64,000 nt of DNA from Cetorhinus maximus (Eukaryota): the NCBI RefSeq assembly GCF_964194155.1, contig NC_135906.1, positions 19,592,001 through 19,656,000 on the forward strand, in the 5' to 3' direction. This document shows, one piece after another, positions 1,209 through 29,685 of the stretch. A program made the translations under genes and the position numbers. The notes beneath the pieces were generated by a model. It worked only from the letters and a program-made list of their open reading frames with translations, was not told the origin of the DNA and made no database searches. Position 1 is the stretch's first letter. Each line of letters opens with the position of its first letter.

Positions 1209-1284
1209 CTCGATTCAGTCTTGCCCGTTCTCCACAAGGGGCGTTTTCCATCAGATCGTCCAATGTGATTCAGGATATCTATAG
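1209..1284 (-). CDS. SSX2IP-like coding exon 6
   Basis: 76 nt; IDILNHIGRSDGKRPLWRTGKTESR matches SSX2IP MDILNYVGRADGKRGSWRTGKTEAR; no stop, so the gene continues leftwards. Confidence 0.92.
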
Positions 1285-2139
1285 CTTAAAAGCAATGAGT
1301 AAGGGGGATTTTAGTTTATTACATTTATTATTTCTGGGCTTCCAATTGGCAGCTTCTCTCAATCCTGAACAGGAAGTGAAGCCCCCTAGAAACCAGTATT
1401 GCTTAATCCCCCTCCTTCATCCCCAGTAGCTCTTCCCCTCAGCCCTCCTGATGATTTGAGGTTGCGGAAACCTGCTGGGCCTGTATTTGAAACACTATTA
1501 AACCCAATGGAGGTGTGCGGGGGTGGGGGCAGATGGCAGAAGAATTTCCCCCCCTCCCCTCCCAGGGGATTGTATGGCGGGGGAGGGGTGGGGTTGTGTG
1601 CACATCAGGCATTATGATACACAAGGCACCACTGTTTTGGACAGGCTTCCTGGTCTATCCTTGTCCATGTGTAGTTTTGTGTTGCTGTCCACACTGGTCT
1701 AACCTGCAGTCTGGGGAGGAACAAGTACAGTTCCACTGCCTATAGCAGCCTTATTGGGTTAACATGGTTTCCCCATAATAAAAATCAGTGGATAGTAAAA
1801 ATCCAAAACATGTTGGCTAGTGTTTTAAAAAAGTAGGCAAATCTCATTTAGTAATTATTTCTAAGTTATTAAAAGGTGATGACAAAATAACAAGGCATGA
1901 ACAGCTGATTGAAACTGCAAAGACTCAACTGAAATCGGCAACACCTTTTAAATAGCTGAAGTATAGGGTTAATACTCATTAAAAGAAAACCTGAATCAAC
2001 CAGAATTCCTTCTTGCTCCACGCTCTCTACTGATCTGCTAAATTTTCCTGGCATTTTCTGATTTTACCTCAGATTTCCAGCATGCAGGGTATTGGACTGC
2101 CTGGACTAGTTGGTGGGTTTCCCCAAGTCCTGCCTTTTT

Positions 2140-3185
2140 ATAAAAAAATCATTCTTGGGATGTGGGCTTTGCTGGCTGGGCCAGCATTTATTGCCCATCT
2201 CTAGTTGCCCTTGAGAAGGTGATGGTGAGCTGCCTTCTTGAACCGCTGCAGTCCATGTGGTGTAGGTTACACCCATAGTGCTGTTAGGGAGGGAGTTCCA
2301 GGATTTTGACTCAGCGACAGTGAAGGAACGGCGATATATTTCCAAGTCAGGATGGTGAGTGAAGGCTGCCCTTGTCCTTCTAGATGGTAGTGGTCATGGG
2401 TTTGGAAGGCGCTGTCGAAGGAGCCTTGGTGAGTTCCTATAGTGCATCTTGTAGATGGTACACACTGCTGCTACTGTATGTCGGTGGTGGGAGTGAATGT
2501 TTGTGGATGGGGTGCCAATCAAGCGGGGCTGCTTTGTCCTGGATGGTGTCAAGCTTCTTGGTTGTTGGAGCTGCACTCATCCAGGCAAGTGGGTAGTATT
2601 CCATCACACTCCTGACTTGTGCCTTGTAGATGGTGGACAGGATTTGGGGAGTCACAAGGTGAGTTACTCGCCACAGGATTCCTAGCCTCTGACCTGCTCT
2701 TGTAGCCACAGTATTTATATGGCTAGTCCAGTTCAGTTTCTGGTCAATGGTAACCCCCAGGATGTTGATAGTGGGGGATTCAGTGATGGTTATGCCATTG
2801 AATGTCAAGGGGCGATGGTTAGATTCTCTCTTGTTGGAGATGGTCATTGCCTGGCACTTGTTTGGCACGAATGTTACTTGCCACTTGTCAGCCCAAGCCT
2901 GGATATTGTTCAGGTCTTGTTGCATCTGTACATGGACTGTTTCAGTATCTGAGTTGTCACAAATGGTGCTGAACATTGTGCAATCATCAACGAACATCCC
3001 CACTTCTGAACTTGTGATATAAGGAAATTCATTGATGAAGCAGCTGAAGATGGTTGGGCTGTGGACACTACCCTAAGGAACTCCTGCAGTGATGCCCTGG
3101 AACTGAGATGACTGACCTCCAACAACCACAACCATCTTCCTTTGTGCTAGGTATGACTCTAACCAGTGGAGAGTTTTCCTCCTGA
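2140..3185 (-). mobile_element. CR1/L2-clade LINE 3' fragment (RT)
   Basis: GVP(Q)GS..PTIFSCFIN, MFVDDCT, ILGVTIDQKLNW; frameshifts and stops. Confidence 0.9.
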
Positions 3186-3300
3186 TAGCTTATGATGCAC
3201 GTTATCCAGGCAGATGCTCAGGATAAGGAACTGTTCAAGAGGTGGACTATCCTTGATTGGAATTCTCCACCCACTCCCTCACAAAAAGTGAAATAGTTAC

Positions 3301-3436
3301 TGATTCTTTTGTCTTTTTTGTCTGTCAGGTGGTGATGCATCTTCTCCTTCAGTTTGCTCAGTTCCTGCTCCTTCCTCTTCAGGTCATGGAGATATTGAGC
3401 TGCCCGACTTGCAACAATACTCTGTAACTTTGCCAC
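3301..3436 (-). CDS. SSX2IP-like coding exon 5
   Basis: 136 nt; VAKLQSIVASRAAQYLHDLKRKEQELSKLKEKMHHHLTDKKDKRI, close to SSX2IP. Confidence 0.92.
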
Positions 3437-26505: not shown

Positions 26506-26586
26506 ATGTCGAATAGTAACAGTGTCCAGGTGATGCAGAAAGTGGTGGAGCAACTGAGGCTGGAGGCCAGTGTGGAGAGGCTTAAG
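26506..26586 (+). CDS. Heterotrimeric G-protein gamma subunit (GNG5/GNG10-like), coding exon 1
   Basis: MSNSNSVQVMQKVVEQLRLEASVERLK then GTGAGA donor; 81 nt. Confidence 0.93.
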
Positions 26587-26664
26587 GTGAGAGGCAGAGA
26601 ACTCCCTAGGGGGTAAACAAGAAAGGAGGGGAGAGGGTTTAAACAACAGATTTGTGAGCAAAGT

Positions 26665-27622
26665 TATAGCTCATGGAATAAAAGGGACATAGCAACATGG
26701 ATACAGAATTGGCTAAGTGACAGCAAACAAGAGAGTGGCGGTGAATGGTTGTTTTTCAGATAGTTGGTGTTCGAATCCCTGCTCTTCCTGATATATTTTA
26801 ATGGTATACAGGGCACAATTTCAAAATTTGCAGATGATACAAAACTTGGAAGTATGTGAACCACGAGGAGGATAATGTAAATTTCCAAAGGATAAGTTGG
26901 TGGAACGTGCAGACAATTGGCAGATGAAAGTTAATGCAGAGAAGTGTGAAACAATTCATTTTGGTAGGAAGAATGCAGACAATATAAAATAAAGGGTACA
27001 ATTCTAAAGGGTATATATGTGCATAAATCATTGAAGGTGGCAGGAGAGGTTGAGAGAGTGGTTAATAAAGCATACGGCATCCTGGGCTTTATCAATAGGG
27101 ACATAGAGTACAAAAGCAAGAAAGTTATGTTAAACCTGTATAAAACACTGGTTCAGCGTCAACTGGAGTATTGCAGCCAGTTCTGGGAGCCACTCTTTGA
27201 GAGATATAGTGCAGAAAAGATTCATGATAATGGTTGCTGGGGTGAGGAACTTCAGTTATGTAGATAGATTGGAGAAGTTGGGACTGTTCTTGGAGAAGAC
27301 AAAGTTGAGTGGAGATTTGGTAGAAGTATTCAAAATCATGAGGGGTCTGGACAGAGTAGATAGGAAGAAACTTTTTCCATTGTGGGAGGATTGAGAAGTA
27401 GAGGGCACAGATTTAAGGGAATTAGCAAAAGCAGACATGAGAAACCTTTTTATACGGCGAGTGGTTAGCATCTGGAATGCGTTGGCTGAGAGTGTGGTGG
27501 AGGCAGGGTCAATCGAGGCATTCAAGAGGAACATTGGATCATTATCTGAAAAGGAAAAATTTACAGAGCAACGGGGGAAAAGGCAAGAAAGTGACTTAGG
27601 TGAATTGCCCCTTTAGAGGGCC
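26665..27622 (+). mobile_element. CR1 LINE fragment in the G-gamma intron
   Basis: KFADDTKL, KAYGILGFINRDIEYK, GDLVEVFKIMRG. Confidence 0.88.
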
Positions 27623-29559
27623 AGCACGGACATGATTGGCTGAATGGCCTCCTTCTGTGCTTTAACCATCCTGTGATTCTGTGAATATCATTGCACTGTG
27701 GTTAGGGCTTACTGCTGATTGCACTATGAAACAAAGATGCTCAGTGTCTGCTCATGGTCATGTGTAAAACATAAAGTAAGTCAGGCTGTTCATCACTTGG
27801 GTCCAATCCAAGAACTAAGACAGTGAGTGAACTGTGCTGACTCCTCACCAGCAGCTTTTGACTTTTGACACTTACCCATCCAATTTCTTGTTAACTCCTG
27901 CTCCTCCTGACTATTTTTTAATTGGTAAGGAGCATGGATAAACCAGAATCCTGCCTATTATTTGTTTCTCCCTTCCCCTCCTGATGCCTACAGCCCATAT
28001 TGGGGTATAGACCCTGAGCCTTTGCCAGCCCCCCCTCCCCCATTCCTTATGTATGGGGCCAGACAGCAACTGTCCTCAGGCTAGTTAACTAAGGAGGGCA
28101 TTACATTTCAGCATATCTTCTCCAGTTTCTCGAGTCAATTGGAGATCAAGGCTGATCTGTTTCTTAACTCCATCTACTGCCTCGATTCTGTAACTCTTCT
28201 CCTTGCCCAAAAAAATCTATCAATCCCAGGAATGGAATTTTTAATTGATCCCCACCCTCAATTTTTTTGGGGAGAGAGAGTTCCTGTTTCCATCCCCCTT
28301 TGTGTGAATAAGTGTTCCTAGCATCACTGCTGAACAGCCGAACTCTAATTGTAATAAAATGCCTATCAGCGTGGGGATCAAAGATCGGGATCTCGGGCCA
28401 ATCTTTCCCTCTCCCTTTCCCCAGGGACACCAAGGCCAATCCTACGTCGCAACTTTTGCCTCAGCCGAGAGGTCCCGGTGACGCCAGAGGGAGTTTGAAA
28501 ACCAGAGCTTGGGAGGATAGCTCAGTCTAGACTGAGGCTGGAAGGAAGAGCCAGGTCACTTTCAAATAAACACACTCTCTAACATCTGCTAAGTTATGCT
28601 TATGACAGCAACATGCCTCGAATATTTTTCAAAACCAGGAAATCCAGCTAGCTGTTTTGTGGTATAATTATTCACCAAAAAATGTTTTCATTCAGGCAAA
28701 TCACTTGGAATATTCAGAGATAGAGGAGTTAGACTAACCAGGCTAGATCTTGTAGAGAAGCTGGTGGATGTAATATTGGCTGTCAATGTCTGTTGTAATT
28801 ATATATAGAGTCATAGATTAGTACACCACGGAAAGAGGCCATTTGGTCCATCGAGCCTGTGGTGGTTCTTTCAAATCCAGTTAGTCCCACTCCCTTGTTC
28901 TTTCCCCATATCACTGCAAATTTTTCTCCTTCAAATATTTATCCAATTTCCTTTTGAAGGTCACTACTGAATCTTTATCCATCACCCTATCAAGCAGTGC
29001 ATTCCGAATCCTAACCATTCGCTGCATAAAAAAGCGTCATCTGCAGTTGTTTTGCCAATCATCTTAAATCTGTGCCCTCTGGTTATTGACCCTTTCAGCC
29101 ATTGGAAACAGTTTCCCTTCATTAATACGGACAGAGTCATATTATTCAGAGTCATACGGACTCGAAACGTTAAGTGTATTCCTCTCCGCAGTTGCTGTCA
29201 GACCTGCTGAGTTTTTCCAGCTATTTTTGTTATTGTTTCAGGTTTCCAGCATCCGCGGTATTTTGCTTTTATTTCCCTTAGTTTATTCTCTCTAAACCCA
29301 TCATGATTTTCAACGTACTTGTTTATTTGTTCAATAATCTCTGCCCCACTTCACCTCATCTGCATCAGTCACAGCCTTCTAGTTATAATTATGATCCAAA
29401 CCCCAACAGGAGCAATAAATAAATCACTCAAAACAGCACAAATATATTGTATATGTCCCAGTACCTCACTTCCCACAGCCACGTACTGTAGCTCACACCC
29501 CTGAGGCCACCATGTTAGTACTTTATCTCTGATTTCGTGATTTTGTGACCATTTCTCAG

Positions 29560-29685
29560 GTTTCTCAGGCAGCCATGGATCTGAAAAACTTCTGCCTCCA
29601 GAATGCTCACAAAGATCTCCTGCTTATGGGGGTTCCATCCAATGATAATCCCTTCAGACCTCCAAAATCCTGCCTTCTGCTATGA
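29560..29685 (+). CDS. G-protein gamma subunit coding exon 2 with CaaX box
   Basis: [44 protein letters not shown] motifs, NPF, CaaX CLLL; total 68 aa. Confidence 0.95.

What the first reader, a model, noticed from the sequence alone, without database searches (positions are those of the whole stretch)
1209..29685. SSX2IP-like and GNG5-like genes beside CLPP/DCAF15: candidate ohnolog pair absent from human chr19
Seen: a divergent SSX2IP-type gene with SSX2IP-like exon sizes and a GNG5/10-type gene flank CLPP and lie next to DCAF15. Known: human SSX2IP and GNG5 cluster with PRKACB/SAMD13/DNASE2B on 1p, while DCAF15 lies near the paralogs PRKACA/SAMD1/DNASE2 on 19p13 and CLPP is also on 19p13. 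Inference: these are sister copies from vertebrate whole-genome duplication, retained in sharks, i.e. an uncharacterised second ADIP-family centriolar/junction protein and an extra G-gamma.
Basis: partly seen in the sequence, partly recalled or inferred. Interest (0 to 1): 0.75.

Follow-up and report, generated by a model that had tools for sequence, protein, structure and literature searches.

The report
Overlooked second SSX2IP gene in vertebrates
This shark chromosome carries intact second copies of the centrosome gene SSX2IP and of a G-protein gamma-5 gene, likely left by an early vertebrate genome doubling, and the SSX2IP copy also occurs in bony fishes, amphibians, reptiles and mammals as far as the sloth.

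Summary
The window has an intact SSX2IP/ADIP paralog, CLPP, a 68-aa gamma-5/10-type G-gamma gene and DCAF15; DNASE2 lies just beyond its right edge. The canonical block (SSX2IP, VTG, CTBS, GNG, DNASE2B, UOX, SAMD13, PRKACB) is on C18. Five of its families have a sister copy on the window's chromosome C29, and all 12 SSX2IP intron phases match. Trees put the window protein in a separate clade (97/99) and reject a shark-only duplication (AU p=2.5e-4). It evolves 2-3.7 times faster and is truncated in frog and therian models. The 17 bony-fish G-gamma proteins tested (labelled gamma-5 or gamma-10 where named) are closer to the window's G-gamma than to either canonical shark gene, but that tree is unresolved. 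This scan noted the third G-gamma before in another shark. Function is inferred only, and absence in humans was not testable. Databases list both genes as '-like'; my literature searches found no description of the SSX2IP copy.

The parts
10417..10455 (-). SSX2IP-like upstream exon, 3' part (donor after 10417); the database model P0001 starts at an ATG at 10455 and skips the 170-bp exon
   Evidence: tblastn of P0001; sequence; splicing not shown by RNA
8464..8505 (-). SSX2IP-like exon with the conserved start MGDW (coding 8464-8485)
   Evidence: same start in shark orthologs and in the C18 gene
7739..7908 (-). SSX2IP-like coding exon 2 (170 bp)
   Evidence: 72% identical to horn shark P0003
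6101..6316 (-). SSX2IP-like coding exon 3 (216 bp), start of the ADIP domain
   Evidence: 100% to P0001
5167..5277 (-). SSX2IP-like coding exon 4 (111 bp)
3301..3436 (-). SSX2IP-like coding exon 5 (136 bp)
1209..1284 (-). SSX2IP-like coding exon 6 (76 bp); seven further exons lie left of the window
12580..24547 (-). CLPP, 7 coding exons, 248 aa, head to head with the G-gamma gene
   Evidence: Pfam PF00574; an RNA-like contig covers its first exon
26506..26586 (+). G-gamma (gamma-5/10 type) coding exon 1
   Evidence: spliced contigs
29560..29685 (+). G-gamma coding exon 2 with CaaX box CLLL and stop
   Evidence: Pfam PF00631; joint 26586-29560 in 3 of 4 runs
39958..60622 (-). DCAF15
   Evidence: Pfam PF14939; exons; ATG; 3' end read

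Best explanation
The window holds intact sister copies of SSX2IP and of the GNG5-type gene on C18, which likely arose by whole-genome duplication before jawed vertebrates diversified and whose products are predicted to act as a microtubule-anchoring coiled-coil adaptor and a lipid-anchored G-protein gamma subunit. Shown: gene structures, a second locus on C18, the paralogous block, the two-clade ADIP tree and the wide taxon range. Inferred: (1) the duplication was the second vertebrate round, with C29 as the small, fast-evolving, loss-prone sister of C18 (about 0.7); (2) the SSX2IP copy keeps the ancestral job of tethering microtubule minus ends at centrosomes or basal bodies, probably with WDR8/WRAP73, because the segments invariant across invertebrates and both vertebrate clades are intact, while the mapped alpha-actinin and afadin regions have drifted (about 0.6); (3) the G-gamma is geranylgeranylated at CLLL and pairs with G-beta (about 0.9, from established family rules); (4) bony-fish genes labelled gng5 or gng10 are orthologs of this G-gamma (about 0.7).
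For: Block on C18: SSX2IP 6.40-6.43 Mb, vitellogenins 6.45-6.65, a GH18 chitobiase 6.70, G-gamma 7.03-7.04, DNase II 7.10, uricase 7.14, SAM gene 7.17, PKA catalytic gene 7.31; vitellogenin and Ctbs linkage is published for the canonical genes (PMC10015161, PMC2632621, PMC3944967). DNase II occurs only on C18 and C29, the C29 copy 0.7 kb right of the window. The PKA exon has 2 matches, C18 and C29; the best non-self SAM match is on C29. MAST genes lie on C18, C29, C2, C13 and PBX genes on C18, C29, C22, C10, the pattern that chicken chromosomes 8 and 30 show in PMC9974502 Dataset S1. ADIP tree of 52 rows: clade B 25 rows at 97/99, clade A 20 rows at 87/99. AU tests on 26 of the 52 rows reject a cartilaginous-fish-only duplication (p=2.5e-4), a mammal-only one (2e-31) and the window protein inside A (4e-69). 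The ADIP-B and G-gamma records share a contig length in horn shark, sevengill, cloudy catshark, lungfish, coelacanth and smelt; in lungfish and smelt the canonical SSX2IP is on another contig. The gar B accession XP_015204645 falls between those of gar LG6 ELAVL3 (…628) and MAST1 (…659).
Against: Hagfish is unplaced: with A p=0.17, with B p=0.14, so the round of duplication rests on synteny alone. None of the five AU tests on the G-gamma tree was significant, and the C18 gene, on a long branch, nests among the window-type rows; identity is confounded by rate. No tetrapod GNG5, GNG10 or GNG14 sequence was in hand. In coelacanth, SSX2IP-A, SSX2IP-B and the G-gamma all sit on a contig of the same length, which I cannot explain beyond a possible fusion. 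SAMD1 and PRKACA are 10 Mb from the window, and SSX2IP-like is inverted relative to C18. No CTBS or vitellogenin copy was found on C29 (0 of 70 and 0 of 15 matches). Contig length and accession order are only proxies for synteny. No binding or localisation data exist; clade A support drops to 87 with hagfish included.
Confidence: 0.85

Rival explanations
1. The pair arose by a segmental duplication or in the first genome doubling rather than the second; both copies are still ancient paralogs.
For: Hagfish can group with A or B without significant loss. A and B share a contig length in coelacanth. Only some block genes have a C29 sister.
Against: Paralogy extends over both whole chromosomes (MAST, PBX, PKA, SAM), and only C18 and C29 share both ancestral groups, as chicken 8 and 30 do.
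Confidence: 0.2
2. The window's G-gamma is the slowly evolving true GNG5 or GNG10 ortholog, or the ortholog of mammalian GNG14, and not a third gamma-5/10 gene.
For: Tree unresolved. Databases call the bony-fish matches gamma-5 or gamma-10. GNG14 is a two-exon G-gamma that is coding in most mammals (PMC12462614); I recall it lying on 19p13.
Against: This genome has three distinct gamma-5/10-type genes, 51-59% identical to each other, and the C18 one occupies the Ctbs-linked site published for mouse Gng5. I recall GNG14 being gamma-7/12-like; not tested.
Confidence: 0.15
3. SSX2IP-B is a decaying, largely redundant duplicate or has moved to a new job (for example a dominant partner of SSX2IP-A or a tissue-restricted role) and no longer anchors microtubules.
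For: Paths are 2.1-3.7 times longer in B than in A. Frog models lack the ADIP domain and therian models lack the N-terminus; sloth and frog proteins score nothing on Pfam ADIP. Two unnamed fragments group with sloth.
Against: Elasmobranch copies are full length and 58-79% identical to the window species' protein. The LN..R.DG.R..W and FTEAAIRLG.ER..FE segments are 85-100% conserved across B.
Confidence: 0.3
4. The copies are shark-specific duplicates, pseudogenes or an assembly artefact.
For: Only that no spliced contig of SSX2IP-like was seen among the rows shown, which is not informative.
Against: 41% identity between the two shark proteins, open frames with canonical splice sites, AU p=2.5e-4, spliced G-gamma contigs, orthologs in many named vertebrates.
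Confidence: 0.02

Closest known systems
SSX2IP / ADIP / Msd1 (Pfam PF11559), canonical vertebrate gene; here G000:C18:6.40-6.43 Mb
   Same: ADIP domain, 13 coding exons with 12 identical intron phases, long predicted helices, family-invariant segments at aa 223-236 and 430-457.
   Different: 41% identical to the shark's own SSX2IP; separate clade; 2-3.7 times faster; regions aligned to the Xenopus actinin- and afadin-binding segments are 44-46% and 39-43% identical to tetrapod SSX2IP against 78-80% and 65-67% for the C18 gene; keeps a C-terminal P-x-T-x-E-L-Y motif that the three elasmobranch A copies lack.
GNG5 and GNG10 (G-protein gamma 5/10 subfamily, Pfam PF00631)
   Same: 68 aa, two coding exons with a phase-0 intron, CaaX ending in Leu; gamma-5/10 group supported 100/99.
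   Different: 59% to the C18 gene and 57% to the C2 gene; Leu replaces the Pro of the DPLL motif in all 5 shark copies aligned; head to head with CLPP, whereas mouse Gng5 is head to head with Spata1 (PMC3944967).
Ohnolog pairs of the chicken 8 / chicken 30 (human 1 / human 19) paralogon, such as MAST2/MAST1, LPAR3/LPAR2, PBX1/PBX4 (PMC9974502 Dataset S1)
   Same: Same chromosome pair by MAST and PBX positions.
   Different: SSX2IP, GNG5, DNASE2, PRKACB and SAMD13 are not in that dataset by name, which lists groups of three or more.
[quoted passage not shown]
   Same: These are, or probably are, the same gene: H3AH95 falls in clade B; the cluster is the nearest to the sloth protein by features, 0.95.
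   Different: None is described as a distinct paralog; the identity of the zebrafish-style name with clade B is a lead that I did not test by sequence.

Membership tests
ADIP/SSX2IP/Msd1 family | Pfam ADIP domain above the curated cut-off | tested here: met
   88.4 bits against 34.3 for P0001
ADIP/SSX2IP/Msd1 family | Long coiled-coil helices with low-confidence linkers and tail | tested here: met
   AlphaFold2 helices 53-174, 205-249, 275-306, 320-353, 365-422; mean pLDDT 69, pTM 0.30; coiled-coil pairing itself not modelled
ADIP/SSX2IP/Msd1 family | Shared exon-intron structure | tested here: met
   12 of 12 intron phases identical to C18 SSX2IP
ADIP/SSX2IP/Msd1 family | Binding to WDR8/WRAP73, PCM1-dependent satellite localisation, microtubule anchoring | not testable with these tools
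   Known for SSX2IP from PMC5219025 passages; no data for the paralog
ADIP/SSX2IP/Msd1 family | Binding to alpha-actinin and afadin | tested here: inconclusive
   Regions present but only 39-46% identical to tetrapod SSX2IP; binding untested
Canonical SSX2IP orthologs (clade A) | Grouping with tetrapod and fish SSX2IP | tested here: not met
   AU p=4e-69; separate clade
Canonical SSX2IP orthologs (clade A) | Linkage to vitellogenin and CTBS | tested here: not met
   Both lie by the C18 gene; none found on C29
G-protein gamma subunits | GGL domain and C-terminal CaaX | tested here: met
   Pfam 40.9 bits against 27.1; ends CLLL
G-protein gamma subunits | Prenylation and G-beta binding | not testable with these tools
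   Inferred from family rules; PMC12462614 passage on the CaaX cysteine
gamma-5/gamma-10 subfamily | Groups with the C18 and C2 genes apart from gamma-2/3/7/12 types | tested here: met
   100/99; no tetrapod reference sequences were included
GNG5 ortholog proper | Position beside CTBS/SPATA1 | tested here: not met
   That site holds the C18 gene
GNG5 ortholog proper | Phylogenetic grouping with mammalian GNG5 | not tested
   No mammalian GNG5 sequence was returned
Vertebrate whole-genome-duplication ohnologs | Duplication before the cartilaginous/bony fish split, after invertebrate chordates | tested here: met
   Both clades span gnathostomes; amphioxus outside
Vertebrate whole-genome-duplication ohnologs | Location in paralogous chromosome blocks | tested here: met
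   ADIP, G-gamma, DNase II, SAM, PKA, MAST and PBX families on both C18 and C29
Vertebrate whole-genome-duplication ohnologs | Assignment to the second round by cyclostome placement | tested here: inconclusive
   Hagfish unplaced; no lamprey sequence identified

The most novel reading that the evidence does not exclude
Jawed vertebrates ancestrally had two ADIP proteins that split the ancestral job: the unstudied B copy kept an ancient C-terminal motif that sharks and amniotes lost from SSX2IP, and was then trimmed separately in frogs (ADIP domain lost) and mammals (N-terminus lost). In parallel, the fish genes labelled gng5 and gng10 are both copies of a third G-gamma gene rather than of human GNG5 and GNG10. 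Zebrafish and Xenopus work on these genes would then have a hidden paralog and wrong orthology labels, and the natural deletions would map which part of ADIP serves centrosomes and which serves junctions.
Probability: 0.35. Interest if true: 0.62.

Novelty: new member of a known kind. Interest (0 to 1): 0.45.

Why it matters
SSX2IP/ADIP is treated as a single vertebrate gene with roles at centrosomes, cilia and junctions. A second copy present in fish, amphibian and reptile models could mask or share those roles, and its lineage-specific truncations are ready-made domain tests. It already causes naming errors (a coelacanth UniProt entry named SSX2IP belongs to the second clade). If fish 'gng5/gng10' are a third G-gamma, cross-species comparisons with mammalian G-gamma-5 knockouts need revisiting. 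Ohnologs lost in humans are a common kind of finding, which limits the surprise.

Tried and rejected
RNA for SSX2IP-like: 4 runs laid on 1100-10600 were swamped by repeats and showed no exon joint among the rows displayed; no RNA holder is on record. This says nothing about expression. An 8-residue G-gamma-like match at C18:6,484,100 is a LINE fragment. PDB holds no ADIP relative by profile or fold (0 at E<=0.001), and the G-gamma search returned 56 sequences, none labelled gamma-5 or gamma-10. The atlas search with the C18 G-gamma exon gave only generic clusters. The Brix search did not find RPF1 on C18; an RPF1-like exon at L047 had no Pfam match. NACC1 (L009) and DNAJC25 (L058) were recognised from recall only; Pfam gave 0 families. 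No third ADIP gene was seen, but only 150 of 1700 candidates were scored. The first G-gamma tree used a wrong frame for the window gene and was discarded. In one quick mixture tree hagfish fell inside clade B; the careful tree left it unplaced. An anchovy ADIP-like protein (P0250) is long-branched and unplaced. No complex was folded, since no partner sequence was available. Literature searches found no description of an SSX2IP paralog or a third gamma-5/10 gene; subscription journals are largely missing, and the SSX2IP tree in supplementary fig. S2 of PMC10015161 is a picture that I could not see and may already show this clade.
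Full report
1. Observation. The window is G000:C29:19,592,001-19,656,000 on a 29-Mb contig of a 4-Gb genome. It holds four genes. An SSX2IP-like gene runs on the minus strand with six coding exons in the window and seven to its left; all introns are GT-AG and the frame is open for 599 aa. CLPP (248 aa) follows, then a plus-strand G-gamma gene of 68 aa ending CLLL, then DCAF15. A database protein labelled basking shark, P0001, is identical over the exon queried; that model starts at an upstream ATG and skips the 170-bp exon, which I include because shark orthologs have it. 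The G-gamma intron 26587-29559 is spliced in contigs from 3 of 4 runs of other organisms, guessed by the tool to be RNA.

2. A second locus exists. The Pfam ADIP search gave 122 matches at E<=10; the four best are on C18 (three) and C29. The C18 gene encodes 621 aa, is 77% identical to devil ray ssx2ipa and 41% to the window protein, and shares all 12 intron phases and five exon lengths with it. Downstream on C18 lie vitellogenins, a GH18 chitobiase, a G-gamma, DNase II, uricase, a SAM gene and a PKA catalytic gene. Linkage of canonical SSX2IP to vitellogenins and of Gng5 to Ctbs is published (PMC10015161 and PMC2632621, passages; PMC3944967, passages). Of 20 G-gamma matches, 17 pass the cut-off; three are gamma-5/10 type: C29, C18:7.04 Mb and C2:176.2 Mb. 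The GNG10 label for the C2 gene rests on the tree and on a neighbour that I recognise as DNAJC25 from recall.

3. Paralogous blocks. DNase II genes occur on C18 and on C29, the latter starting 0.7 kb right of the window (8 matches, 4 each). The PKA exon has 2 matches, C18 and C29:9.67 Mb; the best of 5 non-self SAM matches is C29:9.56 Mb. Left of the window lie TRMT1 and MAN2B1; their human position on 19p13 is recalled. The order SSX2IP, G-gamma, DNase II and the convergent G-gamma/DNase II orientation are the same on both chromosomes; SSX2IP-like is inverted. CTBS and vitellogenin have no match on C29. MAST genes lie on C18, C29, C2, C13 and PBX genes on C18, C29 (two places), C22, C10. In PMC9974502 Dataset S1 (parts 10 and 18 of 22 read) chicken 8 and 30 alone share both ancestral groups that hold MAST and PBX. 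I infer that C18 and C29 are that pair and that a fusion shared by only two of four copies points to the second doubling. These families were chosen from prior knowledge, so they are not a blind sample.

4. Phylogeny and range. The top 16 of 120 listed hits to P0001 are sharks and rays at 58-100%. A profile search gave 675 hits, 150 listed; 39 of the 150 score best on a clade-B profile, two of them doubtful, and the profile contains some of these same rows. I looked up names for 28 of the 150. Named B members are chimaera, bichir, gar, smelt, coelacanth, lungfish, a caecilian, axolotl, three frogs, anole, gecko, king cobra, alligator, platypus, echidna, wallaby and two-toed sloth; none of the named ones is a bird, turtle, rodent or primate. 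The careful tree (52 rows, 536 columns) gives B 97/99 and A 87/99, each largely following the species tree. AU tests on 26 rows reject lineage-specific duplications and placement of the window protein in A; hagfish is unplaced. B paths are 2.1-3.7 times longer than A paths for five species pairs. Teleost ssx2ipb belongs to A, so B is not that gene. UniProt H3AH95, named SSX2IP, is coelacanth B. The atlas cluster nearest to the sloth protein bears the zebrafish-style name Si:ch211-286b5.4, a lead only. Against a clean picture: coelacanth A, B and G-gamma share one contig length.

5. The G-gamma. All 77 of 77 candidates matched exon 2; the named ones are sharks, ray-finned fishes, coelacanth and lungfish, mostly labelled gamma-5 or gamma-10. 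No tetrapod appeared, but neither did tetrapod GNG5, so this is weak evidence of loss. I used 21 of the 77 in a tree. The 17 bony-fish rows are 69-80% identical to the window gene, 51-62% to the C18 gene and 53-65% to the C2 gene; window-type rows group with C18 against C2 at 89/93, and no AU test is significant. In lungfish and smelt the record shares a contig length with SSX2IP-B and not with SSX2IP-A (the smelt G-gamma record is labelled with a sister species). Human GNG14 is a great-ape pseudogene, coding in most mammals (PMC12462614, passages and two supplement rows); its subfamily and position are recalled and untested.

6. Mechanism. Canonical SSX2IP anchors microtubule minus ends, localises to centriolar satellites and binds WDR8 across eukaryotes (PMC5219025, passages); Xenopus ADIP uses aa 124-214 for alpha-actinin and 334-417 for afadin (bioRxiv 2025.05.20.654909, passages). 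The window species' protein is predicted to be a chain of long helices with low-confidence linkers and tail. The columns fixed across A, B and invertebrates cluster at aa 196-236 and 403-457, mostly outside the two junction-partner regions, which are only 39-46% identical to tetrapod SSX2IP (positions transferred by alignment from caecilian and orca numbering). I therefore infer that B keeps the ancestral microtubule-anchoring role, with junction binding less certain. Frog B models start at the exon-7 position and therian models lack the N-terminus; these may be real or annotation splits, since bichir and lungfish also have split models beside full-length ones. The G-gamma is predicted to be geranylgeranylated and to pair with G-beta, from family rules. 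Nothing suggests that the neighbouring genes act together.

7. Novelty. Both genes are in RefSeq under '-like' names. Ten paper searches (listings and abstract starts seen) found no description of either as a distinct ohnolog. Supplementary fig. S2 of PMC10015161 is an SSX2IP tree 'and relatives' of which I saw only the legend; its text speaks of duplication in the family. PMC8040251 (passages; supplement term search with 0 hits) added nothing. This scan had noted a third GNG5/10 gene in another shark but nothing like the SSX2IP copy. Verdict: real, ancient, wider than first thought, a new member of a known kind; interest 0.45.

Noticed in passing
G000:C2:114,457,236-114,479,648 (L061, L062): A third gamma-7/12-type G-gamma gene beside those on C13 and C18; by the MAST pattern it would be the copy on the chicken-Z-like chromosome.
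   Followed up: partly
G000:C3:98.55-99.28 Mb (L067-L069): Three near-identical transducin-gamma-like genes within 0.75 Mb.
   Followed up: no
G000:C29:8.46 Mb and 12.97 Mb: Two PBX-type genes on the window's chromosome, where one is expected.
   Followed up: no
G000:C8:17.58-18.24 Mb and C8:0.03-0.31 Mb: Large tandem expansions of GH18 chitinase-like genes (67 of 70 matches).
   Followed up: no
L023:8495 (G000:C18:6,408,495): Canonical SSX2IP uses a GC donor after coding exon 2, where the window paralog has GT.
   Followed up: no
L015-L019 (G000:C29:19.70-19.74 Mb): Repeated exons and a C-type-lectin-like exon suggest a small tandem lectin cluster right of DNASE2 (Pfam E=0.0076 only).
   Followed up: partly
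window:20740-21415: A long tandem array of a unit of about 32 bp in CLPP intron 1.
   Followed up: no
window:47551-48369: DCAF15 has an 820-bp low-complexity coding exon.
   Followed up: no
coelacanth records P0095, P0217, P0034: SSX2IP-A, SSX2IP-B and the G-gamma share one 172-Mb contig length, which may mean that the two sister chromosomes are fused in coelacanth.
   Followed up: no
L078:3933-4928 (G000:C29:19.476 Mb): A 332-aa open frame of short tandem peptide repeats (weak Cornifin-type Pfam score).
   Followed up: no
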